From the IMG/VR virus record IMGVR_UViG_3300023213_000338: a DNA stretch of 64,000 nucleotides; one strand, given 5' to 3'. The position numbers were made by a program, and so were the translations under genes. Of this stretch, positions 2,401 through 24,943 are shown piece after piece (position 1 is the stretch's first letter; each line of letters begins with the position of its first letter). Source of the DNA: a virus. Lineage: Duplodnaviria > Heunggongvirae > Uroviricota > Caudoviricetes. The notes beneath the pieces are model-generated. The model was not told the DNA's origin. It searched no databases and saw nothing but the letters and a program-made list of their open reading frames with translations.

Positions 2401-2429
2401 TTGACAAATAATTTGTAGTGTGTTTTAAT
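2401..2429 (+). promoter_or_regulatory. sigma70-type promoter TTGACA-N17-TTTAAT
   Basis: TTGACA at 2401-2406, a 17-nt spacer, then TTTAAT at 2424-2429, immediately after the upstream stop. The same architecture recurs at 8060, 12955, 15061 and 26656. Confidence 0.5.
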
Positions 2430-2466
2430 CAAGAAAACTAAGCATTAGCGAGCACCGTTATGCGAA

Positions 2467-2495
2467 GATCAATTAGAAATAATTGGTCTTTTTTT
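2467..2495 (+). terminator. leader hairpin with U7 tract between promoter and start codon (attenuator or terminator-like)
   Basis: The stem gatcaatta/taattggtc (9 bp, one GU) has a gaaa loop and is followed by TTTTTTT. It is preceded by the conserved leader box aagCATtAGCGAGcACCGTTAT at 2440-2462. Confidence 0.45.
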
Positions 2496-2506
2496 GTGCT
2501 TAAATT

Positions 2507-2935
2507 ATGGCAAAGATTAGAGATGTAAAAACAGGAAGGTTTTTAGCTACTCCTCCGCTTTTGTGCATGGATTGTCAAAACCCTAGAAGTAGGGCTTTAA
2601 GCAGTAAAAGGTGTCGCTCCTGTTCCTCGAAGTTAACGGCTAAAAATTTGGGTAAGTATGCAACTAAAGGATTTTTAATAGGAGAGAAAAATTATAAGTG
2701 GAAAGGCGATAAAGTTGGCTATTACTCTCTTCATAATTGGCTAAAAAGAGAATTGGGTAAACCTATGTTTTGTGCTAAAAATATGTCTCATGTTGCTCCT
2801 CTTTATCATTGGGCTAATATTAGCGGTGAATATCTTAGAGATTTAAGTGATTGGCATTCACTTTGTCCTAGTTGCAATAAAACAGATGGGGTTAAAAAAG
2901 CAGACAGATTTACTTTAGAAAGGATGGTAATTTAA
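2507..2935 (+). CDS. zinc-finger/HNH-like endonuclease (possible free-standing homing endonuclease)
   Basis: 142 aa with a CMDCQNP...CRSC zinc ribbon at the N-terminus and LHNW...H...WHSLCPSCNK at the C-terminus, an HNH-like histidine/asparagine/Cys arrangement. Confidence 0.4.
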   Translation: MAKIRDVKTGRFLATPPLLCMDCQNPRSRALSSKRCRSCSSKLTAKNLGKYATKGFLIGEKNYKWKGDKVGYYSLHNWLKRELGKPMFCAKNMSHVAPLYHWANISGEYLRDLSDWHSLCPSCNKTDGVKKADRFTLERMVI

Positions 2936-2936
2936 T

Positions 2937-3320
2937 TTGGCAACGACATCAACACCAGTATTAGCTTGGACAGCATCTTTAATCGGCTCCTCAACAGGAG
3001 CTAATCAATCTGCTTCTCTTACAACCACTGTTAATATTACCCAAGGATGGGAGATTCAAATTCCAGTTAAAGTCCAATTCTCGAATGTTAGTGCCGATGC
3101 GGTTATTAACGCTTATCCATCAAACGATGGAGGGAATGCTTTTGACGGAAATCCAGCCTTCTCTATTTCAGTGGCTCGTGTTTCAGGAGGAGGAGCTACT
3201 CAAACTTCTATTCGTCTTCCAGTAGGTCAGTACGCTTTACAGCTACTTAATTCAGGCCCAAGTAGTGCAACTTTCCAAGTGCTGACCCAGATGGTAATTA
3301 CTGCTATTGTAAACCAGTAA
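2937..3320 (+). CDS. small virion/tail-associated protein (hypothetical)
   Basis: 127-aa ORF with a TTG start, S/T/A-rich and beta-rich in composition. It lies directly upstream of the fibre genes. Confidence 0.45.
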   Translation: MATTSTPVLAWTASLIGSSTGANQSASLTTTVNITQGWEIQIPVKVQFSNVSADAVINAYPSNDGGNAFDGNPAFSISVARVSGGGATQTSIRLPVGQYALQLLNSGPSSATFQVLTQMVITAIVNQ

Positions 3321-3410
3321 ATCTCAGTAAATCTTATGAAATACTTAAACTATATTTTAAAAACGCTTCCAAGCCTTCTTAGTACATAGTCTTGGGAGTA
3401 ATCCAAGACT

Positions 3411-5060
3411 ATGGGTAAATTTTTAGATTTTCCACAACAAGTTACTAAAATTATTACTTCTCAAACATGGGTAGTTCCAATTGGAATAACACAAGTTACT
3501 TTTGAGGCTTGGGGGGGTGGAGGAGGAGGCGGAGGCTCTGATGGAGTAGATGGGGGTTCGGGAGGAGGTGGAGGTGCTTATTCTAGAAAATTTAATGTAA
3601 ATGTTATGCCTGGTCAAAGGTTTACGATTACTATTGGATCAGGCGGATCAGGCGGAGCGGGTGGAAGCGGAAATGATGGAACAGCAGGTCAGGATACAAC
3701 TATTACTCAAAGTTCAACAAAAACTATAGTTTTAGCAAAAGCAGGAGCATTAGGTGGAGGAGGAGGGCCTATTAATCCTGGTGGAGCAGGTGGAAGTGCA
3801 AGTAGTTGTATAGGAGATATTGCTTTTAGCGGAGGTACAGGAGCTTCAAATCCTAGCGAAGGAGGAGGAGGAGGAGGAAGTGGAGGAAACAATGGTCAAG
3901 GAGGAGATACTACTACCAGCACGGGAGGGTCAGGTGGAGCAAATAATGGAAGTAACGGTGCTAATGGAGGAAATCCTGGAGGAACAGGAATTCTACCAGG
4001 ATCAGGGGGTGGGGGAGGTAATGTATCAGGTAGTGCAACGGGAGGGAATGGTGCTTCTGGACAAGTAAATATTATTTATAGATATTCTTTTCTTCACACA
4101 ATAGGACGTTTAATTGGATCTCTAGGAGTAGTAATAGCTCAAAAAGTAGGAGAGACAGAGCGTCCTACCTCACAGATTATTATCGATAAAGTCTTTCAAG
4201 GACAAAAAGCAGCAGTAGCTTTATCCACAGTCACTTTAAATATGGATGTCAATATTCCTTCTCAAGATGCCGATCTTATTGTTACTGGAGGTTCAGTTAT
4301 AGCAACAGGAGCAGCTTGGTCTTCAGTTACTCTTAACGGTACTCCTCTTACCAAACTTGTCCAAACAGGAGTTACGGGTCAATCTGCTGAAATTTGGTGG
4401 ACTCCCAGACCAGGAGTTGGAACAAAAACTCTTAAAATAGTCTCTGGAACTGGGGGGGAAATAAATGTCAATGCCATGATAGTTCTGGGGCTGGATAATA
4501 GGGATATTAATATCATAACAGCTTCAGCAACAGATGCAGCAACAACTTCAACGATTTCAAATACCGTAACTCCAGATGCAGCAAATTGTCTTATTGTTGA
4601 CTGTTTAACATCCCTAGATGCAACAGCTACTCCTGTTCCAGATCAGCTTCAAACTCAAGTTTTTAATGCCAACCAACTTGTCGGTAGCGAATATGTGATG
4701 TCTACTTATAAAATAGGACAGGTTGGTTCTCAAAAAATGAGTTGGAATTTATCAGCCTCAGTTAACGCTTCGTTGGTTACGGCAGTTTTTAGACCAGCAC
4801 AAGCTGCTTCTATTTGGTTTCCTAATATTGATTTAAGAACTATAGATGATACAGTTACGACAGCAGGATTGGATGCTGAAGTTAATCCTGCTTTTGGTAA
4901 TTATGGGTACAAAGCTCCAACTTTTTGGAAGAATTCTTTTTTTCAGACTGTAGGTAGGATAAAAAGTGGCACTCCTTCTTTTATATGGCAACAGCTTATT
5001 GGCTCTGGGCAAGAAATTCCTAGAGAAAATCTCGATAAAACGGAGGTGATAAATTATTAA
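3411..5060 (+). CDS. glycine-rich tail fibre-like protein
   Basis: 549 aa with long Gly runs (GGGGGGGSDGVDGGSGGGGGA, GGGGGGSGGNNGQGGD) in the N-terminal half and a beta-rich C-terminal half. It is followed by a LamG protein. Confidence 0.6.
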   Translation: MGKFLDFPQQVTKIITSQTWVVPIGITQVTFEAWGGGGGGGGSDGVDGGSGGGGGAYSRKFNVNVMPGQRFTITIGSGGSGGAGGSGNDGTAGQDTTITQSSTKTIVLAKAGALGGGGGPINPGGAGGSASSCIGDIAFSGGTGASNPSEGGGGGGSGGNNGQGGDTTTSTGGSGGANNGSNGANGGNPGGTGILPGSGGGGGNVSGSATGGNGASGQVNIIYRYSFLHTIGRLIGSLGVVIAQKVGETERPTSQIIIDKVFQGQKAAVALSTVTLNMDVNIPSQDADLIVTGGSVIATGAAWSSVTLNGTPLTKLVQTGVTGQSAEIWWTPRPGVGTKTLKIVSGTGGEINVNAMIVLGLDNRDINIITASATDAATTSTISNTVTPDAANCLIVDCLTSLDATATPVPDQLQTQVFNANQLVGSEYVMSTYKIGQVGSQKMSWNLSASVNASLVTAVFRPAQAASIWFPNIDLRTIDDTVTTAGLDAEVNPAFGNYGYKAPTFWKNSFFQTVGRIKSGTPSFIWQQLIGSGQEIPRENLDKTEVINY

Positions 5061-5062
5061 AT

Positions 5063-5969: not shown

Positions 5970-8063
5970 ATGGCAAAGAGGATACAGTATCAAGGACTTT
6001 CAGTTGTTCCTCCAACTTCTGGAACTCATAGTTGGTTGGAAGTTGTATCTGTTGATAGGTTTCAACCAATCGTTCCTACTCCACCTCAAAGCAATTGGCA
6101 AAAAGCTCTTCTCTATTCTGTAGCAGCAATTGCTCCTTTTTTGTTTTTTGTTGCTCCTCCAACAGGTCAATCATCTTTTCCAGAAAGCGTAACGGCTGAT
6201 CGTTGGCATCCAGCTATCGAGCAACCGATAGCGAAAATTCGTCCAATCGATCAAAGGCAATATACTTATCCAAACTTTTTTTTTACAGAAAACTCTTTTG
6301 CCGAGACTGTATCTGTAGATAGGTGGCAGGGAAGTAAGCCAGACATAATTTGGGATCTTGAACGAACACAGTATACCTATCCTAGTTTTTTTCACGATCC
6401 TATTCCAATTACCATTATTTCTCCTATTCTTGCTTCGGATGTAGCAATTACTTACCCGAGAACAACTCAATATCAAAGCCACTTTAAGCCTGTTCTTCCT
6501 CCAAGCGAAGTTATTACTTTAGATAAATGGATTGGTCAAAAACCAGATTTTGGAGGAAGACTACAAAATTTCACTTATACCTATCCATATTTCTCAATTG
6601 ACACAAAACAGCTTGCTCAACCAGAAAGAACCACTCCAGATAAATGGCTGGGATATCATCCAAATATTATTTTTGATCTAAAACGCCAACAATTCACTTA
6701 CCCATCTGAGTTTAGAACAGATATCCTTACTCCAGTGTCTGAACCGATTAATTCAGATTCCTACCATCCAGACATAATATTTGACCTGAAGCGTCAACAA
6801 TATACTTATCCGACCCTCTTCTTTACAGAAAACTCTTTTGCCGAGACTGTATCTGTAGATAGGTGGCAGGGAAGTAAGCCAGACATAATTTGGGATTTGA
6901 AAAAGACTCAATTTGATTATCCAAATAGTTTTTTCACAGAATTATCTGCAAAAACAATTACTGTTGACCAATGGCTTACTCCCACAGAGCAACCTGTAAA
7001 AACCACTCCAATAACCGTACATTTACAACAATCGCTTATTTTTACTTCTATTCCGATAACAATTATTACGCCTATAGGAAACGAGAATAATGTTAATATT
7101 GTTTATCCAAGAGTAACTCAATATCAAGGAAGCTTTAATCCTGTTCTTCCTCCAGCCGAAGTTATTACTGTTGACAAATGGAGTGGACACAAGCCCGACA
7201 TAATTTGGGATCTAAAAAGGCTACAATTTACTTATCCCAATTTCTTTTTTACAGAAATATTTTTTCCAGAAACTGTCCTTATAGACAAAACTCCTCCTCA
7301 ATATCCAGATTTTATTTTTGATCTAAAACGCCAACAATTCACTTACCCATCTGAGTTTAGAACAGATATCCTTACTCCAGTGTCTGAACCGATTAATTCA
7401 GATTCCTACCATCCAGACATAATATTTGACCTGAAGCGTCAACAATATACTTATCCATCTGAATTTAGAATAGATTTATTTCCTCCTTCAGCAGAAGTTA
7501 TCAATGCCTTTAGCTATCACCCAGATATAATTTTCGATTTAAGAAGACAACAATATACATATCCCTTCTTTGTTATCGATCCAACTCTTACATTAGAAAG
7601 AGTTTCTATTGATAAATGGCAACCACAAATTCCAGATTTAATCTTTGATCTAAAAAGACAGCAATTTATCTATCCACATTTCTTTTTCACAGAACGCTCT
7701 TTTTTGGAAACTATATTTATAGATAAATGGTATGGAAGTAAACCAGACATAATTTGGGATTTGAAAAGATTGCAATATTTGTATCCAAGTTGGATGCCAA
7801 TTGATCCTCTTCAACTTACGAAAAAAGAAAATATTACGGTTGATAAATGGTTTAAGGAGACAGAAAAACCAGTTTGGGATATTCAAAGACTACAATACAT
7901 GTATCCTTCATGGTCTCCAATTGATCCATTAGCAATGCTTCAAAAAGGACAAAAAGCAACTCCAAAGCTTATCTTGGTAGACGGGGAATTGGCACTTCTT
8001 CTTCTTGACCCCTCAACAGGTTTTAAATATTATACCCTTTTAACAGGCCTTGATATTAGTTGA
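5970..8063 (+). CDS. tail-associated protein built of ~12 degenerate tandem repeats (D+W.G.KPDIIWDLKR.QYTYP..FF)
   Basis: 697 aa with a repeating ~40-aa unit. Two exact DNA duplications lie inside the gene (6289-6363 = 6829-6903; ~6655-6800 = ~7305-7450). Confidence 0.65.
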   Translation: MAKRIQYQGLSVVPPTSGTHSWLEVVSVDRFQPIVPTPPQSNWQKALLYSVAAIAPFLFFVAPPTGQSSFPESVTADRWHPAIEQPIAKIRPIDQRQYTYPNFFFTENSFAETVSVDRWQGSKPDIIWDLERTQYTYPSFFHDPIPITIISPILASDVAITYPRTTQYQSHFKPVLPPSEVITLDKWIGQKPDFGGRLQNFTYTYPYFSIDTKQLAQPERTTPDKWLGYHPNIIFDLKRQQFTYPSEFRTDILTPVSEPINSDSYHPDIIFDLKRQQYTYPTLFFTENSFAETVSVDRWQGSKPDIIWDLKKTQFDYPNSFFTELSAKTITVDQWLTPTEQPVKTTPITVHLQQSLIFTSIPITIITPIGNENNVNIVYPRVTQYQGSFNPVLPPAEVITVDKWSGHKPDIIWDLKRLQFTYPNFFFTEIFFPETVLIDKTPPQYPDFIFDLKRQQFTYPSEFRTDILTPVSEPINSDSYHPDIIFDLKRQQYTYPSEFRIDLFPPSAEVINAFSYHPDIIFDLRRQQYTYPFFVIDPTLTLERVSIDKWQPQIPDLIFDLKRQQFIYPHFFFTERSFLETIFIDKWYGSKPDIIWDLKRLQYLYPSWMPIDPLQLTKKENITVDKWFKETEKPVWDIQRLQYMYPSWSPIDPLAMLQKGQKATPKLILVDGELALLLLDPSTGFKYYTLLTGLDIS

Positions 8064-8088
8064 CATTTAAAATGAGGTATGTTTTAAT
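8060..8088 (+). promoter_or_regulatory. sigma70-type promoter TTGACA-N17-TTTAAT
   Basis: TTGACA at 8060-8065 overlaps the stop of the upstream gene. A 17-nt spacer precedes TTTAAT at 8083-8088. Confidence 0.5.
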
Positions 8089-8129
8089 CAAATCAATTGT
8101 TACCACGAGATAAGCATTGTCCGTGGCGA

Positions 8130-8183: not shown

Positions 8184-9242
8184 TTGACAAAAATTATAAA
8201 CCTTTGGGGATCAACAGGGGCAAATTATTACACAGACGATACAACAGGAGCAGCATTTACATTTACAGGTTCTGGAGTTACAGAATCTTTGCTTTTGTCT
8301 CAAGTTAGTGTAGGAGCGAATGCTACAGTTGCACCATTGAGAATAATCGCTTCGACGGCATCACAGGTTGTGTTGAGCGTTTCAGGCGTGTTCATCTCAA
8401 CAGCCTCGATTAATGTGGCTGCAAGTGCAACAGCGTTCGTTATTCCCGTATTGACGTTGCGGGCTCTATTAGTAATAATAGATGAGAAAGTTCGAGAATT
8501 CGGTGGAAAACTCTTTGAGTCAATACCGAGCCTTGCAAGAGGTGTAGAGACTATGTACGAACTAACCTTGCAAAAGGTTAAAGATATAGTCCGAACTCCA
8601 ATGCGAATTGGAGAATTAAGTAGAAATAACTTAATCCTAGTTAATAAAATGAATAAAAAGATTTGTACTGTTTGTAATAAAGAATTCTCTAAACCTAGTA
8701 GAAGAGGTTATAAACAATGGGTAAAACAAAAAACTTGTTCTTATAAATGCTATTATGGCCGAACAGTTTCAAAAGAAACAAAATTAAGAATGAGTATTGC
8801 TCATAAGGGAAAACCTAACGCAGGATACTTTACGAAAGAAAGAGTTACTACTTTGGAATGGAGACAAAAGCTTTCTAGGGCTGGAAAAGGTAAAAAAAAG
8901 ACTAAAGAACATATTAGAAAAATCTTACAGAGAAGAACATTTTCTAATTTAGAATTAAAATTTCAATCTTTTATTGACAAATATAATCTCCCTTATAAAT
9001 TTGTTGGTAACGGTAATTTTTTTATCGAAAATATTAATCCAGACTTTGTAAATACAAATGGACAGGAAAAGGCAATTGAGGTTTATTATCAAAAGCATAA
9101 AGAAATGTTTAGAAATAAATCTATTAATGAATGGAGACGAGAACGAAGTAATATTTTTCAAAGATATGGATGGGATATATTATTTATTGAAGCAAAGGAA
9201 TTATCAGAAAAATATATTCTTGAGACCTTCGTTAAAAATTAA
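8184..9242 (+). CDS. homing-endonuclease-like protein (Cys4 zinc finger + NUMOD3-like motif + DUF559/Vsr-like nuclease domain) fused in-frame to an N-terminal hydrophobic A/V/S-rich segment
   Basis: NKKICTVCNKEF...CSYKCYYG is a zinc ribbon and ETKLRMSIAHKGK is NUMOD3-like. The C-terminus FFIENINPDFVNTNGQEKAIEVYYQKHK...YGWDILFIE matches the DUF559/Vsr-like topology and is paralogous to ORF 10181-10954. The TTG start and N-terminal ~115 aa may be a separate or ancestral structural-gene segment. Confidence 0.5.
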   Translation: MTKIINLWGSTGANYYTDDTTGAAFTFTGSGVTESLLLSQVSVGANATVAPLRIIASTASQVVLSVSGVFISTASINVAASATAFVIPVLTLRALLVIIDEKVREFGGKLFESIPSLARGVETMYELTLQKVKDIVRTPMRIGELSRNNLILVNKMNKKICTVCNKEFSKPSRRGYKQWVKQKTCSYKCYYGRTVSKETKLRMSIAHKGKPNAGYFTKERVTTLEWRQKLSRAGKGKKKTKEHIRKILQRRTFSNLELKFQSFIDKYNLPYKFVGNGNFFIENINPDFVNTNGQEKAIEVYYQKHKEMFRNKSINEWRRERSNIFQRYGWDILFIEAKELSEKYILETFVKN

Positions 9243-10180: not shown

Positions 10181-10954
10181 ATGCAGATAAAAAAAAATTG
10201 CGTAAGCTGTAATAGCGAATTTATAGTAAAATCATATAGAAAAAATATTGCTTTATACTGTTCAATAAGTTGTAGTAAAAAGGGAAAATCTGCGTGGAAT
10301 AAGGGGTTAAAGGGTTTTAGAAGTGGAATAAGAAAAATAAGAAATAAATCTTTTTGTCTAACATGCAATAAAGAAATTATACCTAATTATCCTTCGCTTA
10401 AAAATAAATTCTGCTCTATTAATTGTCATAATATGTTTATGAAAAAGCCTTTGAATGAAAAGGCTTACAATTGGAAACCGAAAAAAAAAATGATTTGTAG
10501 AGTATGTAGTAAAATTTTTTATATACAATCTTGTCATACGTCCAAAAGAAAATCTTGCTCGATGCAATGTGCTAGTAAATATCGAATTGGTAGTAGACAA
10601 AGTGCAGAAACTATTAAAAAAAGGCTTTCTCGACGAGAGATGTCTAAGTTGGAAATAAAAGTAAATACCATAATTAATAAATATCATCTTCCATATAGGT
10701 TTGTGGGAAATGGAAAATTCTTTCTCGAAAATATTAATCCAGATTTTGTTAATACTAATGGAGAAAAAAAAGCAATAGAAGTTTATTATCAAAAACATAA
10801 AAATCAATTTAGGCTAGGAGGATGTGAAGGGTGGAAAGAAAAAAGAGAGAAAATTTTTGAAAATTATGGGTGGAAAATAATTTTTATAGAAGGCAGTAAA
10901 ATAACAGAAAAAATTATTCTAGACAAATTAATAAGAGGTGAATATGTATGTTAG
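10181..10954 (+). CDS. homing-endonuclease-like protein (three CxxC...CSxxC zinc-finger modules + DUF559/Vsr-like nuclease domain)
   Basis: The module CVSCNSEF...CSISCSKKGK is repeated three times. The C-terminus YRFVGNGKFFLENINPDFVNTNGEKKAIEVYYQKHK...YGWKIIFIE is about 70% identical to the C-terminus of ORF 8184-9242. Confidence 0.55.
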   Translation: MQIKKNCVSCNSEFIVKSYRKNIALYCSISCSKKGKSAWNKGLKGFRSGIRKIRNKSFCLTCNKEIIPNYPSLKNKFCSINCHNMFMKKPLNEKAYNWKPKKKMICRVCSKIFYIQSCHTSKRKSCSMQCASKYRIGSRQSAETIKKRLSRREMSKLEIKVNTIINKYHLPYRFVGNGKFFLENINPDFVNTNGEKKAIEVYYQKHKNQFRLGGCEGWKEKREKIFENYGWKIIFIEGSKITEKIILDKLIRGEYVC

Positions 10955-12954: not shown

Positions 12955-12983
12955 TTGACAAGCTTCTCCCTTTATGTTTTAAT
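12955..12983 (+). promoter_or_regulatory. sigma70-type promoter TTGACA-N17-TTTAAT
   Basis: TTGACA at 12955-12960, a 17-nt spacer, then TTTAAT at 12978-12983. The leader box aaCATAAGCGAGaAACGCTgTg lies at 12995-13016. Confidence 0.5.
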
Positions 12984-13021
12984 CGAAGCAACTTAACATA
13001 AGCGAGAAACGCTGTGTTTTA

Positions 13022-13059: not shown

Positions 13060-13938
13060 ATGGCATCAACATGGTGGAAAGCTAATACATCAAACGCCTA
13101 CAACTCTACATTGAATGGTTCTATCGGATCGGCCGATACCACAATTACCCTCAACTCTGTTGCGGGGCTTCAATCTCCTGGGGTTTTGGTTATTGACCGT
13201 ACCGATGGAAGCGGAAATGCCACCCCCACTCTTCGTGAATATATAAGCTTCACAGGTATCAGCAGTAATCAGCTTACAGGAGTTACAAGAGGAGTTGCAG
13301 GTTCAACAGCTCAAGCACATAATTCTGGGGCTCAAGTTGAAGAAAATATGTCAGTTACTCATTGGAATGACATGATTACTCTTGTTACTAATGAGCACGA
13401 TGTAGCTGGGCATCATGTTATTGCAACGGCTACCATCAATTATACTGAAACCAAACAATTAGTAACAACCTCTCTTGCCTCTATTCAACAACTTGTAATT
13501 GCCCAAATGCTTTCTGCATCAGGAGCATCTATCTATGGAAATATTACTGATTTATCTCAACTCCAAGTTTTATCGAATAAGATGCTTAGTTCTCCTACGC
13601 TTGTTACTCCTACAATGCGTCTTCCTATTGTAATTGATGAATACAATAATGGAACATTTAGTGCAAATGCAACAGTTAGCTGGCTTAATGGAGATAGACA
13701 AAAAGGATTATTAAATACAAATTCAACTTTTTATTTTGCTAGTATGGCATCAGGACAGGTATTGACTTTATGGATGTATCAAGATGGTACTGGAGGACGT
13801 AGCATTACCCTTCCTACCATGAGATGGCCGAGTGCATTGCCTCCTACTTTTGGTTCTTCTGCTTCCCAAGTTAATGCAATTATAGTTAAGTATGATGGAC
13901 AGACTTTTTTTGGTCAATCAGCAGTATCTTTTGGTTAA
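13060..13938 (+). CDS. hypothetical virion protein
   Basis: 292-aa ORF, S/T/N-rich, in the structural module. Confidence 0.5.
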   Translation: MASTWWKANTSNAYNSTLNGSIGSADTTITLNSVAGLQSPGVLVIDRTDGSGNATPTLREYISFTGISSNQLTGVTRGVAGSTAQAHNSGAQVEENMSVTHWNDMITLVTNEHDVAGHHVIATATINYTETKQLVTTSLASIQQLVIAQMLSASGASIYGNITDLSQLQVLSNKMLSSPTLVTPTMRLPIVIDEYNNGTFSANATVSWLNGDRQKGLLNTNSTFYFASMASGQVLTLWMYQDGTGGRSITLPTMRWPSALPPTFGSSASQVNAIIVKYDGQTFFGQSAVSFG

Positions 13939-15060: not shown

Positions 15061-15090
15061 TTGACAAAGAGAAAGCTCTTGTGATATTAA
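15061..15090 (+). promoter_or_regulatory. sigma70-type promoter TTGACA-N18-TATTAA
   Basis: TTGACA at 15061-15066, an 18-nt spacer, then TATTAA at 15085-15090. Confidence 0.45.
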
Positions 15091-15132
15091 TTAGTCAATT
15101 ATAGTTAAAATAATCCAGCACGGATATTTTAG

Positions 15133-15163
15133 ACGACCAAAGTGTAAACTAGGTCGTTTTTTT
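15133..15163 (+). terminator. leader hairpin with U7 tract upstream of the micro-ORF array
   Basis: The stem acgacc/ggtcgt has a 13-nt loop and is followed by TTTTTTT. Confidence 0.4.
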
Positions 15164-15179: not shown

Positions 15180-15302
15180 ATGCCTAGAGTAAAAGTTGGA
15201 AATAAGATTAAAAAATTCCCTTACACTCCAGCAGGGAAGAAAAAGGCGAGATCTTACGCCAAAAAAACTGGAGGGAAGATAACGGATAAAGGATCATATT
15301 AA
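15180..15302 (+). CDS. lysine-rich micropeptide 1 (40 aa: MPRVKVGNKIKKFPYTPAGKKKARSYAKKTGGKITDKGSY)
   Basis: ATG to TAA, first of 8 tandem small basic ORFs that are absent from the >=60-aa ORF track. Confidence 0.4.
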   Translation: MPRVKVGNKIKKFPYTPAGKKKARSYAKKTGGKITDKGSY

Positions 15303-15372
15303 GATGGAACTTATTTGGCCAGAGTCATCAGTAATAGTTTGTGGGGATGATGGAGAGGAGGACGAAATATAA

Positions 15373-15552
15373 ATGAAACCTAAAGGAGCAAAAGGCAGAG
15401 CAATGGTTGCTAAACTCGGTAGGACAAAGAAAACAGGAGGTTTTGCAAAGATTGCAGCAAAAGCAGGTAAAAAATATGGTTCTTCTCAGGCAGGGAAAAA
15501 GGTTGCAGGAGCAATTTTCTGGAAAATGGCAAAGGCAAGAGGAGGAAAATGA
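15373..15552 (+). CDS. lysine-rich micropeptide 2 (59 aa: MKPKGAKGRAMVAKLGRTKKTGGFAKIAAKAGKKYGSSQAGKKVAGAIFWKMAKARGGK)
   Basis: A GGAGAGGAGG RBS precedes the ATG. The stop overlaps the next start as ATGA. Confidence 0.5.
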   Translation: MKPKGAKGRAMVAKLGRTKKTGGFAKIAAKAGKKYGSSQAGKKVAGAIFWKMAKARGGK

Positions 15553-15665
15553 AGAAAGTTTCTAAACTTAAAAAGCGTAAGGCAAATCCTTATAAAAAAA
15601 CAGCAAAAGGATCTCCTTATGGAGCGTCAGCAAATACAGTAAGTGACAAGACACAGTATGGGTAA
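15549..15665 (+). CDS. lysine-rich micropeptide 3 (38 aa: MKKVSKLKKRKANPYKKTAKGSPYGASANTVSDKTQYG)
   Basis: ATG overlaps the previous stop. The ORF overlaps the next start. Confidence 0.45.
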   Translation: MKKVSKLKKRKANPYKKTAKGSPYGASANTVSDKTQYG

Positions 15666-15783
15666 AAGAAAGAAAGCGAAAAAAAAGAGTAGAATGTTTA
15701 AAAGGAAAGGAACTCCGATAACATTCCGAATGCCAGGAAGAGTCGCTACAGAACCAAATACGCCAACTGATATTCAATATTAA
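15658..15783 (+). CDS. lysine-rich micropeptide 4 (41 aa: MGKRKKAKKKSRMFKRKGTPITFRMPGRVATEPNTPTDIQY)
   Basis: ATG at 15658, TAA at 15781-15783. Confidence 0.45.
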   Translation: MGKRKKAKKKSRMFKRKGTPITFRMPGRVATEPNTPTDIQY

Positions 15784-15784
15784 C

Positions 15785-15907
15785 ATGAAGATTAAAGGAA
15801 AAAAGACAAAGAAAGCTAAGAAACAGGTTGTAAATATCGGTAAGTCACGGGGATTAAAGGGCTTACCGACTTGGAATGTTAACTCGGGATATTCCAGTAA
15901 GGTCTAG
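15785..15907 (+). CDS. lysine-rich micropeptide 5 (40 aa: MKIKGKKTKKAKKQVVNIGKSRGLKGLPTWNVNSGYSSKV)
   Basis: ATG 1 nt after the previous stop, ending in TAG. Confidence 0.45.
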   Translation: MKIKGKKTKKAKKQVVNIGKSRGLKGLPTWNVNSGYSSKV

Positions 15908-15909
15908 AT

Positions 15910-16035
15910 ATGGGTAAAAATAAATTAGCAAAAAAGAAAATGAAGCTTCAAGCAAAATTGAAGAAAAAATCAATTAAGCGTTCTCATAAACCTAAAGATG
16001 GAGTGTTTGGAGACGTAACTAATAGGACGTATTAA
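15910..16035 (+). CDS. lysine-rich micropeptide 6 (41 aa: MGKNKLAKKKMKLQAKLKKKSIKRSHKPKDGVFGDVTNRTY)
   Basis: ATG 2 nt after the previous stop, ending in TAA. Confidence 0.45.
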   Translation: MGKNKLAKKKMKLQAKLKKKSIKRSHKPKDGVFGDVTNRTY

Positions 16036-16036
16036 T

Positions 16037-16168
16037 ATGGCAAATAAGAATAGGCAGGGAAAAGAAAAGAAAAAGAAGTCTCAGAAAGCAAAGATGAAAC
16101 AAGTTTATAGGGGTTATGCAGGGAATCGGTTGCCAATAGTGAGAAATGAGGGAGGGAATGCAGTTTAA
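16037..16168 (+). CDS. lysine-rich micropeptide 7 (43 aa: MANKNRQGKEKKKKSQKAKMKQVYRGYAGNRLPIVRNEGGNAV)
   Basis: ATG 1 nt after the previous stop, ending in TAA. Confidence 0.45.
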   Translation: MANKNRQGKEKKKKSQKAKMKQVYRGYAGNRLPIVRNEGGNAV

Positions 16169-16170
16169 CT

Positions 16171-16305
16171 ATGAAATCTAAATCAAAAACAAAAAGCAGA
16201 AAATTGATTAATCCTAAAAAGATTAGTAACAATACCAAGCGAATGGGACAAATGCTACAAAAGGCTAGATCACAAGGAAGCATGTATCACGGAACAGGAG
16301 CATAA
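16171..16305 (+). CDS. lysine-rich micropeptide 8 (44 aa: MKSKSKTKSRKLINPKKISNNTKRMGQMLQKARSQGSMYHGTGA)
   Basis: ATG 2 nt after the previous stop. TAA at 16303-16305, 3 nt before the next gene. Confidence 0.45.
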   Translation: MKSKSKTKSRKLINPKKISNNTKRMGQMLQKARSQGSMYHGTGA

Positions 16306-20600: not shown

Positions 20601-23400
20601 TGAAGACATGGCTTCTTCAGCGATAACTGCTTTAGCAAATGCAAGGAAAGCTTTAAAACCAAATCAATACGCATTCGTAGTAGACTTAGCAGAAGGAAAA
20701 GTACCCATGATTGGAGATAAAGTTGATATGGGCTTAGGAGAGGCGCAGGCACAAGAAATTCCTCCAGAGATTAAGAATTGGTTACAGGCGTGGGATACGG
20801 TTCGTAAAGATATTGCTACAAAAGCAAAAGCTATCGATCTTCAGACTCTTGATCCCGAAGGAGGGATGACAGTTCCTTGGGAGGGAAGAGATAATTATTT
20901 CCCTCATTATGTAACCAAAGAGCAAATGGATCAAATTCGAGCCAATCCAGATGCGACTCTTGATGGCATTATTAGAAGCGGAAAAGCAAGTAATGCTTTT
21001 GAGGCGAGGCTGTATTTAGATAAGCAGTTAGATGCTTTGAGAGCAAGAAGGTTTGGGAATTTGGAAATGCATAGAGGAGATATTGATATTCCTTATTTAA
21101 AAGATCCTCGTATTGCCGAAGATTATGTTAATGGTGCATATAAAAGAATAGCTTATGCCAACCAATTTGGAGCTTTTAATCAAGATGGTCAACGCTTGGT
21201 TGACAACATGATTGGGGAAGGTCGTCCATATGAGTCAAATGTTGCATCTGATCTTTTAAAGCAGGTTACGGGTTATCGTCCACAAAGCCCAGAGGAACAA
21301 GGAGTTGGAATGATTGGGAGAGCTGTTCGTGCAATCGAAACCCCTATGAAGTTAGGCTTAATTTCTCTTCACCACGGAGGACAGGTCGCTTCAATTGCTG
21401 CAAGGTCAGGCCTTGGGAACATGCTCAGAACTGCTCCTCAAGCAGTTTCTTCTTTACTATTTGACAACCAATCTCCTTTTGCTAGAAATGCGGTCTTGGA
21501 GCTTCATGACCTTGATAATAAATATGATCTTTATGGAGGATCTTCTAGACTTGATCAAAAGTTTCTCGGAGTGGTTGGTTTCGACAGAGTAATTAAAACG
21601 CTTCGTGCATGGGGAGCAGACGCTGCCCAAATGCAAGCTAAACAATTCGAAACAAAACTAGACGATTCGACAACAGCAAGATTTCTTAAAGGGGCAGGAC
21701 TTGATTATGATGCAATAAGACAAAGAGGATATCTTACTCAACCAGAAGTTAATCAATATGCAAGATCAGCCTTAAAAGATACAGCCCTTCTTTTTCAGCC
21801 AGGAGATTTACCAAAGCTTTGGAATACGCCAGTTGGAAGACTCATGACTATGTTTAAAACCTTTGGCTATAATCAGGCTACAAAGTTTGTTCCATACATA
21901 TTTAGAGAAGCAAGAGCAGGAAATGTAGCTCCTGCAATCGCATTCTTGACATTGGGAACAGGAATTGGTACAGGTGAACAGGTATTTCAAAATTTAATTC
22001 AAAATAAACCTGCTCCTACGATTGGGAAAACAATTGTTCAAGGTGCACTTAGAGGAGCTAATCCTGGAATTATAGGAAGTACAATTGCAAATACAATTAT
22101 GTACCCACAATATACAGCGTCTAATTTGGTTGGTTTAGTTGGTGGACCCGTAGCCTCTGATGTCATGAATGTAGGAGGATTAGTAAATAATGCTTTAAAT
22201 CCTCCTCAAGGACAAAATCAGGTTCAAATTAAAAACAATCAAATAACTGCAAATAGAGATTTAATTAGAAATGTTCCTTTGGTTGGCTCAACTTTAGCAA
22301 ACACTCTTTTCCCATATAAAAGTTATGTTGGTAATCGTCCATCAGATGTTCTTTCGGGAATGCTTACTGGACAACCAATAACTCATGGAACTGGAGATTT
22401 TGCTTATCAAACAACACCAACAGTTGCTGATTTACTAAGACCAAATCCTACAGTTATCGCTCAAACAAAACAAGCAACAACTATTGCTAAAAATGAAAAT
22501 TCAATTAAAGCTGGATTAGATGCTAATAGACAAACCCAACTTGATACTATCAATAACCTACTTCAGCTTCCTTACAATGGGGGAAATCAGCTTGATAAAA
22601 TTCATGCTTATGGGTTGTTAGCTAATGATGGGCAATTAGCCCTAGCTAAATCACAAATGGAGGCATCTAATGCAAAGACTACAAAAGATCCAGTTAATCC
22701 TTTATGGCAAATGGGACTTGTTAATCCACAAGCACAAAATATTGTTTTGCAATATAAGGCTTTATTGCCAGCAGACCAAAAAGCTTTTAAATCAGATCCT
22801 ACAAATCTAGCTATCTTAAACTCATATAATGCAGCGGAAACAGATTATTACAACAGTCTTCCTCCAACCAAACAAACCCAACAATTTGGTATTGTAGCTC
22901 CGTCTCCTTCAAAAGATGTACAAAACTTACTAAATCAGGCTAAGTCAACAAAAAACTATTCTTTATACAATGATTCAAAAGTGCAAGCATATTTTGCTCA
23001 ACTTGATTATTATGACAATTATATTAATGGATTGGCGGGATTACCCCCTGGAGCTGGAGGGACAACCAAAGGAGGGGGTGGAGGATATGGCTCTTCCAAT
23101 GGTTATATAGGCAATTTACCTAGTAACTATTTGGAACGCGCTCAACTTAGATCCTTTATATCTCAGGCTATGATGCTTGAAAACCAACCTGTCCCAATGA
23201 GATTTAAGGGAGTAGGAGGGTTTCAGCAACAACTCAGACAAAATCCTATTAATATAAATGCATTAACAGGAAATGTAGCATTAGCTCCAAGAGAAAGAGT
23301 TTCACCTGTTTTGGGACAACCAAAAGTTGGAGGAGTACAGCTTAGGCCATATCAGCAACCTACGAGTATGCATGGGCTTGGTATGGCAGCAGTAAGATAA
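17671..23400 (+). CDS. giant virion protein (1909 aa), Q-rich, with an internal ParB/Srx-like DGHHR motif; candidate internal/ejection or tape-measure-like protein
   Basis: Uninterrupted 5.7-kb ORF. DITDGHHRFPISR at about aa 395-407 resembles the ParB/sulfiredoxin-fold signature. The N-terminus is Q/G-rich and the C-terminus has a Gly-rich GGTTKGGGGGYGSSNGY patch. Confidence 0.6.
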   Translation: MDQFGNALNQTGKFFTGIGQDIGNTIENVASGLRDNLSNDWQGLSKSIQQPQIPSINNPVAQDATSSLLPMILQQGQYALQGKNVFGQQQPWSLSNPFAPAPRINAANQINTGNPVADFALKTAVGIPQSILNVPSDIQQGVGQTGQDIQSGKILQPQVAVSDIASIGLPIATLATLPMGGEVAEQAMQQGFGQALKEGALTGTKFGAGFGFGAGLQSGRNITNPQQYLQNLATNVGAGSLAGLAVGGTLGGASNLIGRGLQNMKDNEAVTLPDGLRVTREGINKFMDLKPQIDANYEQYANDPNIWQKLLPQDNFNDWYKSQEMNHTPGGPEALKDANGYFTFVNPFDMPPKVAESGDVMKGVAFDQFVSNNGVSDLPVVKQTYDENGNPNPLDITDGHHRFPISRSLGHQLVPVVMLDDKAPLLSDSFNQIKSGTPMRIGITSAQQANPQVAQFLDQGAKQMEAGDINGAIKTLQNVTDTTKGQLTDLLNDGATQVSRLETNTHGLYFGTPEPSYWLDLNSNNSNETLASLAKFAKDNQQDSFITGTKSQAGQNLGLSMNFGRPLSNEEVVAVQRIANAEGLGLTINQRTGETYSYNISQFDGLNPEEFKTKAEQAITALQAGGFKFSKSLDKYNLGVYTKDNYDGLISKSNRFGQVGAGLQPEGTTGGNISAEQPKGNAGSVLPQNAQLSPQETSIVKGRDKSIDIKDATAKVTEASKDVPVLQDVVDNATNAVNGVSQVALKDPQSLAQKVADDKGRTLENNPDTIRSTILAMDKDKAQQALDILKQDPTVQVVKEKNKVNPKTGYDAQHLQVKLPSGQTAEIQAHTPESLQTREIGHDQYKGEGTKGGIPPPPENIPTTNIFGSPQNYAVLTGLDKNRQEAGLPIPQQQWKNPIAGKGDMGDIPPFDKYGNQGKGAFQPGGAIPETQTPKPIGGIKALAKSLFVGERKVLADSPSTNANLFIKRLEDAANNHEDMASSAITALANARKALKPNQYAFVVDLAEGKVPMIGDKVDMGLGEAQAQEIPPEIKNWLQAWDTVRKDIATKAKAIDLQTLDPEGGMTVPWEGRDNYFPHYVTKEQMDQIRANPDATLDGIIRSGKASNAFEARLYLDKQLDALRARRFGNLEMHRGDIDIPYLKDPRIAEDYVNGAYKRIAYANQFGAFNQDGQRLVDNMIGEGRPYESNVASDLLKQVTGYRPQSPEEQGVGMIGRAVRAIETPMKLGLISLHHGGQVASIAARSGLGNMLRTAPQAVSSLLFDNQSPFARNAVLELHDLDNKYDLYGGSSRLDQKFLGVVGFDRVIKTLRAWGADAAQMQAKQFETKLDDSTTARFLKGAGLDYDAIRQRGYLTQPEVNQYARSALKDTALLFQPGDLPKLWNTPVGRLMTMFKTFGYNQATKFVPYIFREARAGNVAPAIAFLTLGTGIGTGEQVFQNLIQNKPAPTIGKTIVQGALRGANPGIIGSTIANTIMYPQYTASNLVGLVGGPVASDVMNVGGLVNNALNPPQGQNQVQIKNNQITANRDLIRNVPLVGSTLANTLFPYKSYVGNRPSDVLSGMLTGQPITHGTGDFAYQTTPTVADLLRPNPTVIAQTKQATTIAKNENSIKAGLDANRQTQLDTINNLLQLPYNGGNQLDKIHAYGLLANDGQLALAKSQMEASNAKTTKDPVNPLWQMGLVNPQAQNIVLQYKALLPADQKAFKSDPTNLAILNSYNAAETDYYNSLPPTKQTQQFGIVAPSPSKDVQNLLNQAKSTKNYSLYNDSKVQAYFAQLDYYDNYINGLAGLPPGAGGTTKGGGGGYGSSNGYIGNLPSNYLERAQLRSFISQAMMLENQPVPMRFKGVGGFQQQLRQNPININALTGNVALAPRERVSPVLGQPKVGGVQLRPYQQPTSMHGLGMAAVR

Positions 23401-23401
23401 T

Positions 23402-24307
23402 ATGGGAGCATTACAACAAGCACTAGGAGCACTAGGACACTTTGGTCAACAGGCATTTCAAAATGCGTGGGGAGGTGTACAGAATTGGCTTGGAGGCGGT
23501 AGAAGACCAGGATATTCATTTTCTCCTATCCCAAAAGCAGAAAGTCCAGGAGGATATAATAGTCCTTTACAACCAGGCTTGAATTATTATTATCAAAGAG
23601 AGTATGCAAATGAGAGATTGGCTGATCAACAACTTGCTCAAAATCAACATATGCAACCATCTCCCACAAGAAACATAACTCCTATTCCCACAAGAATTCC
23701 TGTTAATAATGTTATTTCTCAACCGATGCAACAATCAAGAATTGTAGCTAGAACAACTCCTACTCCTAATCCTAGCCACACAGTTAACTATCAACAAAAC
23801 ATTACCATTCCCTATAGCCAGACAGGACAACCATATCGTTTACAACCTCAACTTGCTCAAACTTTAATGAATGCATTTGGAAATATTAATCAAGCTACAA
23901 ATGCAGCTCAAGTTCTTAACCATCCTTTACAACAAACCTATACTCAGGCAGAGATCAGGCAAATGGGACATCCTTCGTATAATTATGGAGAAAATGCAGG
24001 TTTTGGTTTAACCAATAATGATGCTCCTAATCCAAATGGATCAATAGACAGGGGTTTATTTAGGATAAATAGCAATACATTTAATGGCATTATGAATGAT
24101 CCTAAATATGGCTTCTGGAAACAAGCTGCAAATAAATTTGGGATTAGAAAATGGGATGACATGAATGATCCGCAAAAGAATGCTTATATGGCAAGAATTA
24201 TCTATGAGATGGGTGGATGGGGTAGATGGTTTGCTGCCCCACCTCAATTAAGAGGACAAGGAGCACCAGACTTACAACAATTAGCTCAGTTAATTGCAAG
24301 GAGGTAA
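23402..24307 (+). CDS. virion-associated lysozyme-like peptidoglycan hydrolase (C-terminal GH22/GH23-like domain)
   Basis: C-terminal GENAGFGL...NGSIDRGLFRINSNTFNG matches the lysozyme/transglycosylase G(L/I)FQINS signature. It starts 1 nt after the giant-protein stop. Confidence 0.5.
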   Translation: MGALQQALGALGHFGQQAFQNAWGGVQNWLGGGRRPGYSFSPIPKAESPGGYNSPLQPGLNYYYQREYANERLADQQLAQNQHMQPSPTRNITPIPTRIPVNNVISQPMQQSRIVARTTPTPNPSHTVNYQQNITIPYSQTGQPYRLQPQLAQTLMNAFGNINQATNAAQVLNHPLQQTYTQAEIRQMGHPSYNYGENAGFGLTNNDAPNPNGSIDRGLFRINSNTFNGIMNDPKYGFWKQAANKFGIRKWDDMNDPQKNAYMARIIYEMGGWGRWFAAPPQLRGQGAPDLQQLAQLIARR

Positions 24308-24833
24308 AAATAATATGGCAATACTAATGGGATCACCAATGCCAGGAAGAGGAGTTCCAACGAGAACTCCAATAACAAATATACCAAGTTTAGATACAAG
24401 TGCTTTTAGACAGCAACTTTTAAATGAGTATCAATCCTTTAGGCAGGGTAATGGAATGGTTGCTAATGGAGCAACACCTTTTGCTAGTCAATTTCTACAA
24501 GGATTACCCGCCCAATTAGGTGGGCAGACTCCTCAACCGATCGTAGCTCAACCAAGTGGATTGCAATTAGCTTTACAACAAATTGCTCAATTATATGCGA
24601 AGAATCGAATGAACCAACCTAATTTTTCTCCATTTATTGCAACAGGAATAGGTAAGGCTATGCAAAGAGTTCCAAATTTTAATCCTAAGTTTCAACAACC
24701 AGTTAATTCTTTAGGGACACTTAATGCCCAAAATAAAAACGTTTCGCCAGAAACAGTTCAACAAGGTAGACAATCAGCTAGAAATGGAGATTTTGCCAGT
24801 CCTTTAAGCACGGGCTATTCTGGAGTTTTCTAA
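24294..24833 (+). CDS. hypothetical protein (Q/N-rich)
   Basis: 179-aa ORF overlapping the previous gene end by 14 nt. Confidence 0.45.
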   Translation: MQGGKNNMAILMGSPMPGRGVPTRTPITNIPSLDTSAFRQQLLNEYQSFRQGNGMVANGATPFASQFLQGLPAQLGGQTPQPIVAQPSGLQLALQQIAQLYAKNRMNQPNFSPFIATGIGKAMQRVPNFNPKFQQPVNSLGTLNAQNKNVSPETVQQGRQSARNGDFASPLSTGYSGVF

Positions 24834-24910
24834 AAACTTGACTTTTTAAGAGAAAGTAGATAGTGTAAAAGACATATATACTTTCAACATAACGAGTACC
24901 GTTTATTGAA

Positions 24911-24943
24911 AGCCACCTGTAAAGAATAAGGGTGGCTTTTTAG
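24911..24943 (+). terminator. hairpin with U tract, preceded by a conserved leader box
   Basis: The 8-bp stem aagccacc/ggtggctt has a 13-nt loop and is followed by tttt. The leader box caaCATAAcGAGtACCGTTtAT lies at 24885-24908. A weak TTGACT...TAGTGT promoter-like element sits at 24839-24867. Confidence 0.4.

What the first reader, a model, noticed from the sequence alone, without database searches (positions are those of the whole stretch)
2401..24943. Recurrent promoter, conserved leader box and hairpin with U tract ahead of + strand operons
At 2401, 8060, 12955, 15061 and more weakly 24839, a near-consensus TTGACA-N17-TTTAAT promoter is followed about 10-50 nt downstream by a strong hairpin with a U7 tract (stems share caatta/taattgg). 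The start codon of the next gene comes only after the hairpin. Three leaders (2440, 12995, 24885) share a conserved box CAT(A/T)AGCGAG-ACCGTT. A terminator placed after the promoter but before the gene suggests late-gene control by attenuation or antitermination, or an RNA processing or stability element.
Basis: seen in the sequence. Interest (0 to 1): 0.55.

Follow-up and report, generated by a model that had tools for sequence, protein, structure and literature searches.

The report
Promoter-hairpin-terminator leaders before phage late operons
Five late-gene operons of this uncultivated phage each begin with the same compact unit (a promoter, a small conserved RNA hairpin, then a terminator placed before the gene), and the unit recurs in dozens of related phages with compensatory base changes, so it is most likely an undescribed RNA switch that decides whether late genes are transcribed.

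Summary
At 2401, 8060, 12955, 15061 and 24838 the upstream gene's stop codon is followed by TTGACA/T-N17 and a -10. Next comes a roughly 65-nt leader with two hairpins, HP1 and HP2, then U5-7, and only then the start codon.

The 650-aa protein encoded next to site 3 led to a large uncultivated family of ~100-kb phages. A covariance model found 59 units in 415 kb of family DNA. All 59 lie on the late-gene strand. None was found in 619 kb of unrelated viral DNA.

HP1 is a 4-bp stem with strong covariation and an A-R-M-A-M pentaloop. It sits 46-52 nt from TTGACA and 3-4 nt from HP2. A third helix (P0) pairs the RNA's 5' end with the first three bases of HP2, so P0 and the base of the terminator exclude each other.

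Best reading: a default-off leader terminator, opened when an unidentified factor binds and stabilises P0-HP1. This resembles RAT/BglG in logic and lambda PR'-tR' in purpose. There is no Rfam match, and no known antiterminator was found in the window. Function is inferred, not shown.

The parts
2401..2429 (+). Module 1 promoter: -35 TTGACA 2401-2406, TG-extended -10 TGTTTTAAT 2421-2429. The stop codon of the upstream gene is at 2395-2397.
2442..2463 (+). Module 1 HP1: GCAUUAGCG-AGCAC-CGUUAUGC.
   Evidence: z -4.8; scored by model R1 (33 bits)
2464..2495 (+). Module 1 HP2 terminator-like hairpin (GNRA loop GAAA) plus U7 at 2489-2495
2507..2509 (+). ATG of the first gene after module 1 (142 aa, no SD)
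8060..8088 (+). Module 2 promoter TTGACA-N17-TTTAAT. The upstream gene's TGA stop (8061-8063) lies inside the -35.
8103..8126 (+). Module 2 HP1, divergent: CCACG/CGUGG stem with a 14-nt loop that can fold further
   Evidence: z -5.8; weak R1 score, 18.9 bits
8128..8158 (+). Module 2 HP2 (11 bp) plus U7
8184..8186 (+). TTG start (with GGAGGTG SD) of the 352-aa gene after module 2
12955..12983 (+). Module 3 promoter TTGACA-N17-TTTAAT
12995..13018 (+). Module 3 HP1: AACAUAAGCG-AGAAA-CGCUGUGUU
   Evidence: z -5.3; R1 34.6 bits
13021..13052 (+). Module 3 HP2 (10 bp) plus U7
13060..13062 (+). ATG of the tail-fibre-like gene (292 aa), 7 nt after the U tract, no SD
15061..15089 (+). Module 4 promoter TTGACA-N17-ATATTA (TG upstream)
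15106..15131 (+). Module 4 HP1 (AUCC-AGCAC-GGAU) extended by the A/U helix UUAAAAU/AUUUUA. The family 5' box AUAGUUA lies at 15101-15107. This is the copy closest to the family consensus.
   Evidence: (42.2 bits)
15132..15163 (+). Module 4 HP2 plus U7
15180..15182 (+). ATG of the first of eight K/R-rich mini-ORFs after module 4
24838..24866 (+). Module 5 promoter TTGACT-N17-TAGTGT (TAnnnT)
24883..24910 (+). Module 5 HP1: UUUCAA..AACG-AGUAC-CGUU..UUGAAAG. Its 3' AAG can alternatively open HP2 (AAGCCACC).
   Evidence: (25.1 bits)
24911..24941 (+). Module 5 HP2 plus U5
24976..24978 (+). ATG of the holin-like gene (102 aa) that precedes the M23 endolysin

Best explanation
Each unit is a conditional, default-off intrinsic terminator built into the 5' leader of a late operon (tail and lysis genes).

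Proposed sequence of events:
1. A sigma-70-type promoter with a perfect -35 fires without an activator.
2. The transcript starts at about AUAGUUA.
3. HP1 forms: a 4-bp stem with an A-R-M-A-M pentaloop.
4. The 5' end (GUUA) pairs with the linker U and the first three bases of HP2. This gives a long, weak hairpin, P0-HP1.
5. Unaided, the much stronger HP2 displaces P0 and, with its U6-8 tract, releases a ~70-nt RNA. The downstream genes stay silent, and read-through from the operon upstream is stopped at the same place.
6. When a factor made earlier in infection binds the HP1 loop and the conserved A/R mismatch at its base, P0-HP1 is locked. The bottom three pairs of HP2 then cannot form next to the U tract, and RNA polymerase reads on.

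What is shown: the anatomy, the conservation, covariation of HP1, HP2 and P0, and the fixed spacing.
What is inferred: that HP2 terminates, that a factor exists, and the timing.
For: In the window:
- Five units have the same order of parts.
- They are the only clean intergenic terminators of the late module.
- The consensus TTGACA-N17-TATAAT promoters, mostly on the - strand, have short hairpin-free leaders.

Across the family:
- The same architecture, with different stem sequences, occurs in L032, whose large protein is 45% identical.
- One L032 site has an extra terminator upstream of the promoter, so HP2 is not there only to end the upstream operon.
- Model R1 finds 59 units in 415 kb of family loci, all on the late-gene strand.
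- R1 finds none in 619 kb of unrelated viral contigs.

Structure:
- HP1 is 93.5% paired, and each of its 4 pairs shows GC, CG, AU and UA.
- HP2 is 90% paired. The covariation score is 0.78 against 0.22 in shuffles (0 of 500 reach it; slid controls 0.06-0.16).
- A plain MAFFT alignment and RNAalifold agree.
- Loop: A 48/59, R 51/59, C or A 48/59, A 55/59, A or C 51/59. It is exactly 5 nt in 52/59.

P0:
- 82% paired against 69% in shuffles, with 28 double changes against 9.8 (0 of 500 for both); slid controls 22-58%.
- GCU boxes go with AGC/GGC at the start of HP2 (Fisher p = 0.002). The alignment was not fitted to P0.
- In folds of the nascent RNA lacking the 3' arm of HP2, the first 3 nt of HP2 are paired upstream in 50/59.

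Spacing and coupling:
- TTGACA to HP1 is 46-52 nt in 49/53 units.
- HP1 to HP2 is 3-4 nt.
- Almost every intergenic late-strand terminator has its own HP1, which argues for local action.
Against: - No transcript or biochemical data exist, and the host is unknown. The CPR/Patescibacteria assignment is only hinted at by one record label and by the sample types.
- No Q, N, NusG/KOW, CAT-RBD, ANTAR or other RNA-binding domain was found among ~70 window proteins. About 36 kb of the source contig is outside the window.
- In this window's own copies HP1 is lengthened to 8-10 bp and abuts HP2. The overlap with HP2 is only 1-3 nt, so the switch is less evident here than in the family consensus.
- P0 is short and A/U-rich, and its statistics are not corrected for relatedness.
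- At the orthologous tail-fibre site some relatives keep the promoter but have no hairpins (L043, L045, L070).
- The start codon often lies 0-12 nt after the U tract with no SD, so a role in translation or stability could also explain part of the conservation.
Confidence: 0.45

Rival explanations
1. Processive antitermination (nut/N, LoaP or Q style). HP1, with the 5' box, is a loading site for a factor that rides on RNA polymerase and makes it terminator-resistant. HP2 is simply the first terminator met.
For: - The layout 5' box, spacer, then small hairpin with an A-rich pentaloop is the layout of boxA-boxB.
- A small hairpin plus a leader terminator is also the LoaP arrangement (PMC12691694).
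- The initial transcribed sequence TAAGTT/TAGTTA is -10-like. It could give a sigma-dependent pause, as at lambda PR' (own knowledge).
Against: - Every terminator has its own HP1 at 3-4 nt and its own promoter. That would be redundant for a processive system.
- The P0 overlap with HP2 has no role in this model.
- There is no boxA sequence, no G-first GNRA-like loop and no UNCG loop.
- No N, Q or NusG paralogue was found.
Confidence: 0.2
2. Constitutive element. HP2 is an ordinary, partly leaky terminator that ends the upstream operon. In a very compact genome it is shared with the next operon's 5' UTR. HP1/P0 is a 5'-terminal stabiliser or a folding insulator, and the U tract serves as an SD-independent ribosome landing site.
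For: - The upstream stop codon abuts or overlaps the -35.
- P0 starts ~3 nt from the inferred 5' end, as 5' stabilisers do (own knowledge).
- The ATG is often 0-12 nt after the U tract, and only 19/55 units have an SD.
Against: - A strong U6-8 terminator after every late promoter would waste most initiations.
- The conserved loop bases A1 and A4 and the conserved purine mismatch point to recognition, not just stability.
- L032 has a separate terminator before the promoter.
- In the full-length RNA HP2 wins over P0, which would leave the 5' end single-stranded.
Confidence: 0.2
3. The terminated ~70-nt RNAs are themselves the products: a multi-copy family of small RNAs, for example decoys for a host RNA-binding protein. 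Downstream genes are then expressed by incidental read-through.
For: Promoter plus ~70 nt plus terminator is the anatomy of an sRNA gene. There are several copies per genome.
Against: - Loops and stems differ between copies within one genome, so there is no common antisense target.
- Every unit sits immediately before a start codon on the coding strand.
- There is no Rfam match.
Confidence: 0.07
4. DNA-level element. The inverted repeats are operators or recombination sites for a dimeric DNA-binding protein.
For: Three HP2 stems in the window share the palindrome CCAATTA..TAATTGG.
Against: - Across the family the arms covary with no conserved arm sequence.
- G-U pairs are tolerated.
- All 59 units are on one strand and are followed by a U tract.
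Confidence: 0.02

Closest known systems
Lambda PR'-tR' late control by Q (own knowledge; see also PMC7171158)
   Same: An activator-independent sigma-70 promoter is followed within ~100-200 nt by an intrinsic terminator, ahead of structural and lysis genes. A short terminated RNA is made by default, and late genes need antitermination.
   Different: Lambda has one such site per genome; here there are at least 5 per 27 kb. Q is recruited by a DNA site and a sigma-dependent pause and acts processively. Here a covarying RNA hairpin sits 3-4 nt from each terminator. No Q homologue was found.
Lambda/P22 nut site (boxA-spacer-boxB) with N protein (own knowledge)
   Same: A conserved single-stranded box, an A/U spacer, then a 4-5-bp hairpin with an A-rich pentaloop, just downstream of a promoter.
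   Different: The box is AUAGUUA, not CGCUCUUA. The loop starts with A (A-R-M-A-M), not G (GAAAA/GACAA). The hairpin is glued to a terminator and overlaps it through P0. There are many copies. No N-like protein was recognised.
RAT antiterminators bound by BglG/SacY/LicT (own knowledge)
   Same: A weak leader hairpin shares a few bases with the 5' arm of the terminator. Protein binding to the hairpin would prevent the terminator from forming. The action is local, one site per terminator.
   Different: There is no sequence resemblance to RAT. The element is smaller. No CAT-RBD/PRD protein is present. The context is a phage, with the promoter integrated at a fixed distance.
LoaP-dependent dfn/mln leaders of Bacillus velezensis (PMC12691694)
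   Same: The leader holds a small hairpin required for antitermination, plus an intrinsic terminator.
   Different: The LoaP hairpin has a UNCG tetraloop. The factor is a NusG paralogue that antagonises NusA and also acts at distant terminators. No NusG-like protein was found here.
ANTAR-regulated leaders (own knowledge)
   Same: Small hairpins with conserved loop positions 1 and 4, overlapping a terminator.
   Different: ANTAR needs two tandem hexaloop hairpins with A1 and G4. Here there is one pentaloop hairpin with A1 and A4. No ANTAR domain was found.
HK022 put RNA (own knowledge)
   Same: A two-hairpin RNA of ~70 nt directly after a phage promoter that governs terminator read-through.
   Different: Both put hairpins act on the polymerase without a protein, and neither is a terminator. 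Here the second hairpin is the terminator itself.

Membership tests
Lambda Q / PR'-tR' system | Constitutive sigma-70 promoter followed by an intrinsic terminator upstream of late genes | tested here: met
   promoter, then hairpin+U5-7, then start codon at all five sites
Lambda Q / PR'-tR' system | Q protein (Pfam antitermination Q families) | tested here: not met
   No such Pfam or PHROG hit among ~70 window proteins. The rest of the contig was not seen.
Lambda Q / PR'-tR' system | -10-like pause element in the initial transcribed region, and a DNA Q-binding element | tested here: inconclusive
   TAAGTT/TAGTTA lies at about +2 to +7 and a conserved TTAGT in the spacer. The resemblance is suggestive only.
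Lambdoid nut / N | boxA CGCUCUU(U)A upstream of boxB | tested here: not met
   The 5' box consensus is AUA(A)GUUA
Lambdoid nut / N | boxB: 5-bp stem with a G-first, GNRA-like pentaloop | tested here: not met
   The size is similar (4 bp + 5 nt), but loop position 1 is A in 48/59 and G in 3/59
Lambdoid nut / N | Action at a distance over several terminators | not testable with these tools
   Needs transcription assays. The one-HP1-per-terminator layout argues against it.
BglG/SacY RAT attenuators | Antiterminator hairpin overlapping the 5' arm of the terminator | tested here: met
   P0 shares 3 nt with HP2, and both helices are supported. The overlap is weaker in the window's own copies.
BglG/SacY RAT attenuators | RAT consensus sequence and a CAT-RBD/PRD protein | tested here: not met
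   There is no sequence similarity and no such domain in the window
LoaP leaders | UNCG tetraloop hairpin and a NusG paralogue | tested here: not met
   The loop is an A-R-M-A-M pentaloop. No NusG/KOW hit was found (Pfam calls above). Features taken from PMC12691694.
ANTAR targets | Two tandem hexaloop hairpins with A1/G4 | tested here: not met
   There is one pentaloop hairpin, and position 4 is A in 55/59
Any Rfam 15 family | Match to a curated covariance model | tested here: not met
   The gathering search of the window gave only tmRNA and tRNA. E-value searches over modules gave only chance-level hits far below gathering.

The most novel reading that the evidence does not exclude
The unit is a self-contained, protein-free 'origin-selective' terminator. 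P0 lies within ~3 nt of the transcript's own 5' end, at a fixed distance from the promoter. It would therefore fold fast and hold only in RNAs that start at the unit's own promoter, letting those polymerases pass HP2. RNAs arriving from the upstream operon would fold differently and terminate. Each unit would then reset transcription between late operons: a terminator for incoming polymerases and a pass for its own.
Probability: 0.1. Interest if true: 0.8.

Novelty: new variant of a known kind. Interest (0 to 1): 0.6.

Why it matters
If the reading is right, a large, uncultivated family of ~100-kb phages from groundwater and sediment times its structural and lysis genes with many copies of one miniature RNA switch. 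The host is possibly a Candidate Phyla Radiation bacterium. This differs from the single late switch of lambda and from a late sigma factor or activator.

The unit is only ~110 bp and combines promoter, sensor hairpin and terminator, so it can be tested directly in vitro. The conserved pentaloop gives a bait for finding a new RNA-binding antiterminator. The unit is also a practical marker for late operons and transcript boundaries in these otherwise unannotatable genomes. It is a candidate new family for RNA databases.

Tried and rejected
- Close phage relatives: a megablast search of the late module against INPHARED found nothing. A protein search found only remote hits.
- IMG/VR: the exact promoter pattern gave 31 single hits at chance level. 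Three protein-seeded scans gave no relatives. A promoter-plus-box pattern gave 72 single hits, none of which scored with the RNA model. These were used as a negative control.
- The first metagenome scan, seeded with the Q/N-rich 450-aa protein, found nothing. It also showed that the source contig is not in that collection.
- The more distant relatives L033 and L034 (integrase-bearing contigs; the 35.7-kb and 40.6-kb contigs that encode P0003 and P0004) lack the units.
- The genome scan returned only a contig labelled as a Nitrososphaeraceae archaeon MAG, which is probably mis-binned. It gave no host information.
- The search for the trans-acting factor with Pfam and PHROGs on ~70 window proteins found nothing relevant.
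- Riboswitch reading rejected. The conserved core is a 4-bp stem and 5-nt loop, with variable internal-loop sequence.
- Common antisense or kissing partner rejected. The loops differ between copies within one genome.
- DNA palindrome or operator reading rejected on covariation and strand bias.
- Literature searches for CPR phage antitermination found nothing pertinent.
Full report
**1. Context**

The window is part of a phage genome with ~35% G+C. The + strand from 1 to about 27.5 kb carries tail-fibre, minor-tail and baseplate-like genes, and then a holin-like gene with an M23 endolysin. This is a late module. The rest of the window, mostly on the - strand, holds replication and accessory genes. 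These include ParB, a DnaD-like protein, ClpP, MoxR/VWA and ThiF/JAB, plus a tmRNA and two tRNAs.

**2. The observation**

All five sites are as described. The order of parts is always the same:
- the stop codon of the upstream gene, which at 8061-8063 lies inside the -35;
- TTGACA (TTGACT at 24838);
- a 17-nt spacer;
- a -10: TTTAAT with TG upstream at three sites, ATATTA at 15084, TAGTGT at 24861;
- a leader;
- a hairpin followed by U7 (U5 at the last site);
- the start codon.

TTGACA-N17-TWTAAT with at most one mismatch is six-fold enriched in the window: 16 matches against 2.6 expected, and 0 of 100 shuffles reach 16. The other members of this set form a second class, TTGACA-N14-TTGTATAAT. 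They are mostly on the - strand, and the start codon follows within 10-20 nt with no hairpin.

My own scan for a hairpin followed by T5 or more found seven candidates on the + strand of the late module. Five are these sites. The other two lie inside ORFs.

Each leader folds into two hairpins, not one, with z-scores of -3.5 to -5.8 and no shuffle of 200 folding as well. All five leaders have an HP1.

**3. Relatives**

No relative exists in INPHARED or IMG/VR.

The 1909-aa protein has one 45%-identical homologue, on contig L032. At three syntenic sites L032 shows promoter, HP1, then HP2+U7, with unrelated stem sequences. One of these sites also has a terminator upstream of the promoter.

The 650-aa protein encoded just before site 3 has 543 homologues at 54-79% identity. 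Many are on contigs of 90-103 kb. One is labelled Candidatus Dojkabacteria, and many come from 0.1-um groundwater fractions. A metagenome scan with an alignment of these proteins gave 57 loci.

The unit is everywhere in these loci. Of 84 distinct + strand terminators, 63 have TTGAC or TTTACA within 110 nt upstream.

**4. The RNA element**

I aligned 56 leaders, built covariance model R1 and searched with it.
- In the window only the five sites score.
- In 415 kb of family DNA there are 59 hits at E <= 0.1, all on the late-gene strand.
- In 619 kb of unrelated viral contigs there are none.

HP1:
- It is a 4-bp stem that is 93.5% paired, and every pair uses GC, CG, AU and UA.
- Together with HP2 (90% paired) the covariation score is 0.78 against 0.22 in shuffles, and 0.06-0.16 when partners are slid.
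- The sequence-only alignment and RNAalifold agree.
- The loop is exactly 5 nt in 52 of 59 units, with consensus A-R-M-A-M. Position 1 is A in 48 units and position 4 is A in 55.
- HP1 is flanked by a conserved A on the 5' side and a purine on the 3' side.
- It is followed after 3-4 nt (AUUU) by HP2.

5' box and P0:
- Upstream lies the box AUA(A)GUUA.
- Relatives with a consensus TATAAT (L058, L066) place that box 7 nt after the -10. I therefore infer that it is the 5' end of the RNA.
- The box can pair with the last linker U and the first three bases of HP2. I call this helix P0.
- P0 is 82% paired against 69% in shuffles, with 28 double changes against 9.8 (0 of 500 for both). Slid controls give 22-58%.
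- GCU boxes go with AGC or GGC at the start of HP2 (p = 0.002), and the same HP2 bases covary with their partners in the 3' arm (p = 2e-10).
- These counts are not corrected for relatedness. However, the alignment was not fitted to P0.
- P0 and the bottom of HP2 are mutually exclusive.
- In minimum-energy folds of the nascent RNA before the 3' arm of HP2 exists, the first three bases of HP2 are paired upstream in 50 of 59 units.
- In the full RNA HP2 wins by about 10 kcal/mol.

**5. Promoter coupling**

The distance from TTGACA to the first base of HP1 is 46-52 nt in 49 of 53 units. Across the family the -35 is invariant. The -10 is only TAnnnT, after an 18-nt spacer, and a TTAGT motif sits in the spacer.

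Of 51 such promoter-like sites on the + strand, 36 are followed by a scored unit. Several more are followed by variants the model missed. Three are promoter-only.

The start codon follows the U tract at a median of about 15 nt. It often follows at 0-12 nt, and an SD is present in only 19 of 55 units.

**6. Mechanism**

Shown: a promoter-linked leader with three covarying helices, two of which compete for the base of a canonical intrinsic terminator, and a conserved loop.

Established knowledge: a terminator hairpin must reach the U tract to release the transcript, so blocking its bottom pairs abolishes termination.

Inferred: termination is the default, because P0 is weak. A factor that recognises the HP1 loop and junction stabilises P0-HP1 and allows read-through. 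This turns on tail and lysis operons and also lets polymerases from upstream continue.

The perfect -35 suggests that no activator is needed, as at lambda PR'. The one-HP1-per-terminator layout and the 3-4-nt spacing favour local, RAT-like action over a processive nut-, Q- or LoaP-like system (PMC12691694). The latter remains the main rival.

A constitutive reading (shared terminator, 5' stabiliser, U-rich ribosome site) is not excluded. In the window's own copies HP1 is longer and merely abuts HP2, so the competition is weaker here than in the consensus.

No candidate factor was found among ~70 proteins scanned.

**7. Comparison and novelty**

The unit works like known leader attenuators and serves the purpose of lambda PR'-tR'. 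It fails the sequence or protein criteria of nut/N, Q, RAT, LoaP and ANTAR, and it matches no Rfam family.

I rate it a new variant of a known kind: a new cis-regulatory RNA motif, multi-copy, with an integrated promoter, in an unstudied phage family.

Interest is 0.6. The structural evidence is strong and the system is directly testable, but the class of mechanism is familiar and function is unproven.

Noticed in passing
window 41546-42316: The phage carries a tmRNA gene (41651-42012, Rfam 80.8 bits) behind its own TTGAAA-N17-TATAAT promoter. tRNA-Gln and tRNA-Gly follow directly.
   Followed up: no
window 15180-16300; L032 2338-4201: Eight tandem mini-ORFs (35-60 aa), extremely rich in K and R, lie right after module 4 and before the Q/N-rich 450-aa and 1909-aa proteins. 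The cluster is conserved in L032. They may be packaged DNA-binding proteins. As arginine/lysine-rich peptides they are also an untested lead for the HP1-binding factor.
   Followed up: no
window 32254-32282, 33631-33659, 36461-36489, 38199-38227, 49012-49040, 57455-57483, 60753-60781 (- strand): A second promoter class: TTGACA-N14-TTGTATAAT followed by ATAGATAA and an ATG within 10-20 nt, with no SD and no hairpin. These are presumably early genes.
   Followed up: partly
window 39914-40123 (+): A promoter (TTGACA-N17-TATGGT) is followed by a 175-nt highly structured leader (MFE -55.7 kcal/mol, z -5.8). It ends in a ~25-bp hairpin plus U7, immediately before the DnaD-like gene at 40124. This is a different, larger promoter-hairpin-U-tract leader, or possibly an origin-like inverted repeat.
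   Followed up: partly
L049 2079-2200, L051, L052 3313-3430, L057 1576-1700: A different leader lies after the same promoter type, ahead of a Zn-ribbon/HNH-like ORF. It has two hairpins whose loops are complementary and covary (GUUGCU/AGCAAC, GUAUG/CAUAC, GUUGAU/AUCAAC, GUUGAG/CUCAAC), and no U tract. This is a possible kissing-loop RNA.
   Followed up: no
window 63718-63963: A tandem array of 27 copies of the 9-bp unit GGAGCGCAT, with a 72-bp super-period. Read on the - strand it gives an MRSLRS-repeat ORF.
   Followed up: no
window 33697-34506, 35193-35840, 49144-51939, 53401-55748: An unusual accessory gene set for a phage: SPFH/Band 7, ClpP, MoxR-type AAA+ with a VWA partner, and a ThiF-like E1 next to a JAB-like protein and a small ubiquitin-like ORF.
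   Followed up: no
relatives, between U tract and ATG of the 'MARLTV' gene (e.g. L045 7016-7032, L084 346-366): A conserved palindromic box GCTAAKCGATTATT lies in the short 5' UTR after the unit. It is seen in at least 6 loci.
   Followed up: no
L033/L035 (JAICVW010000001.1): A contig with phage tail genes and an integrase is deposited as part of a Nitrososphaeraceae archaeon MAG. This is probably a mis-binned bacterial prophage or phage contig.
   Followed up: no
window 8184-9242, 10181-10954, 60314-60745; relatives L036, L044, L047, L048 after the 650-aa gene: HNH or Zn-ribbon endonuclease-like ORFs are inserted next to the units at varying positions. This suggests mobile genes that land between late operons.
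   Followed up: no
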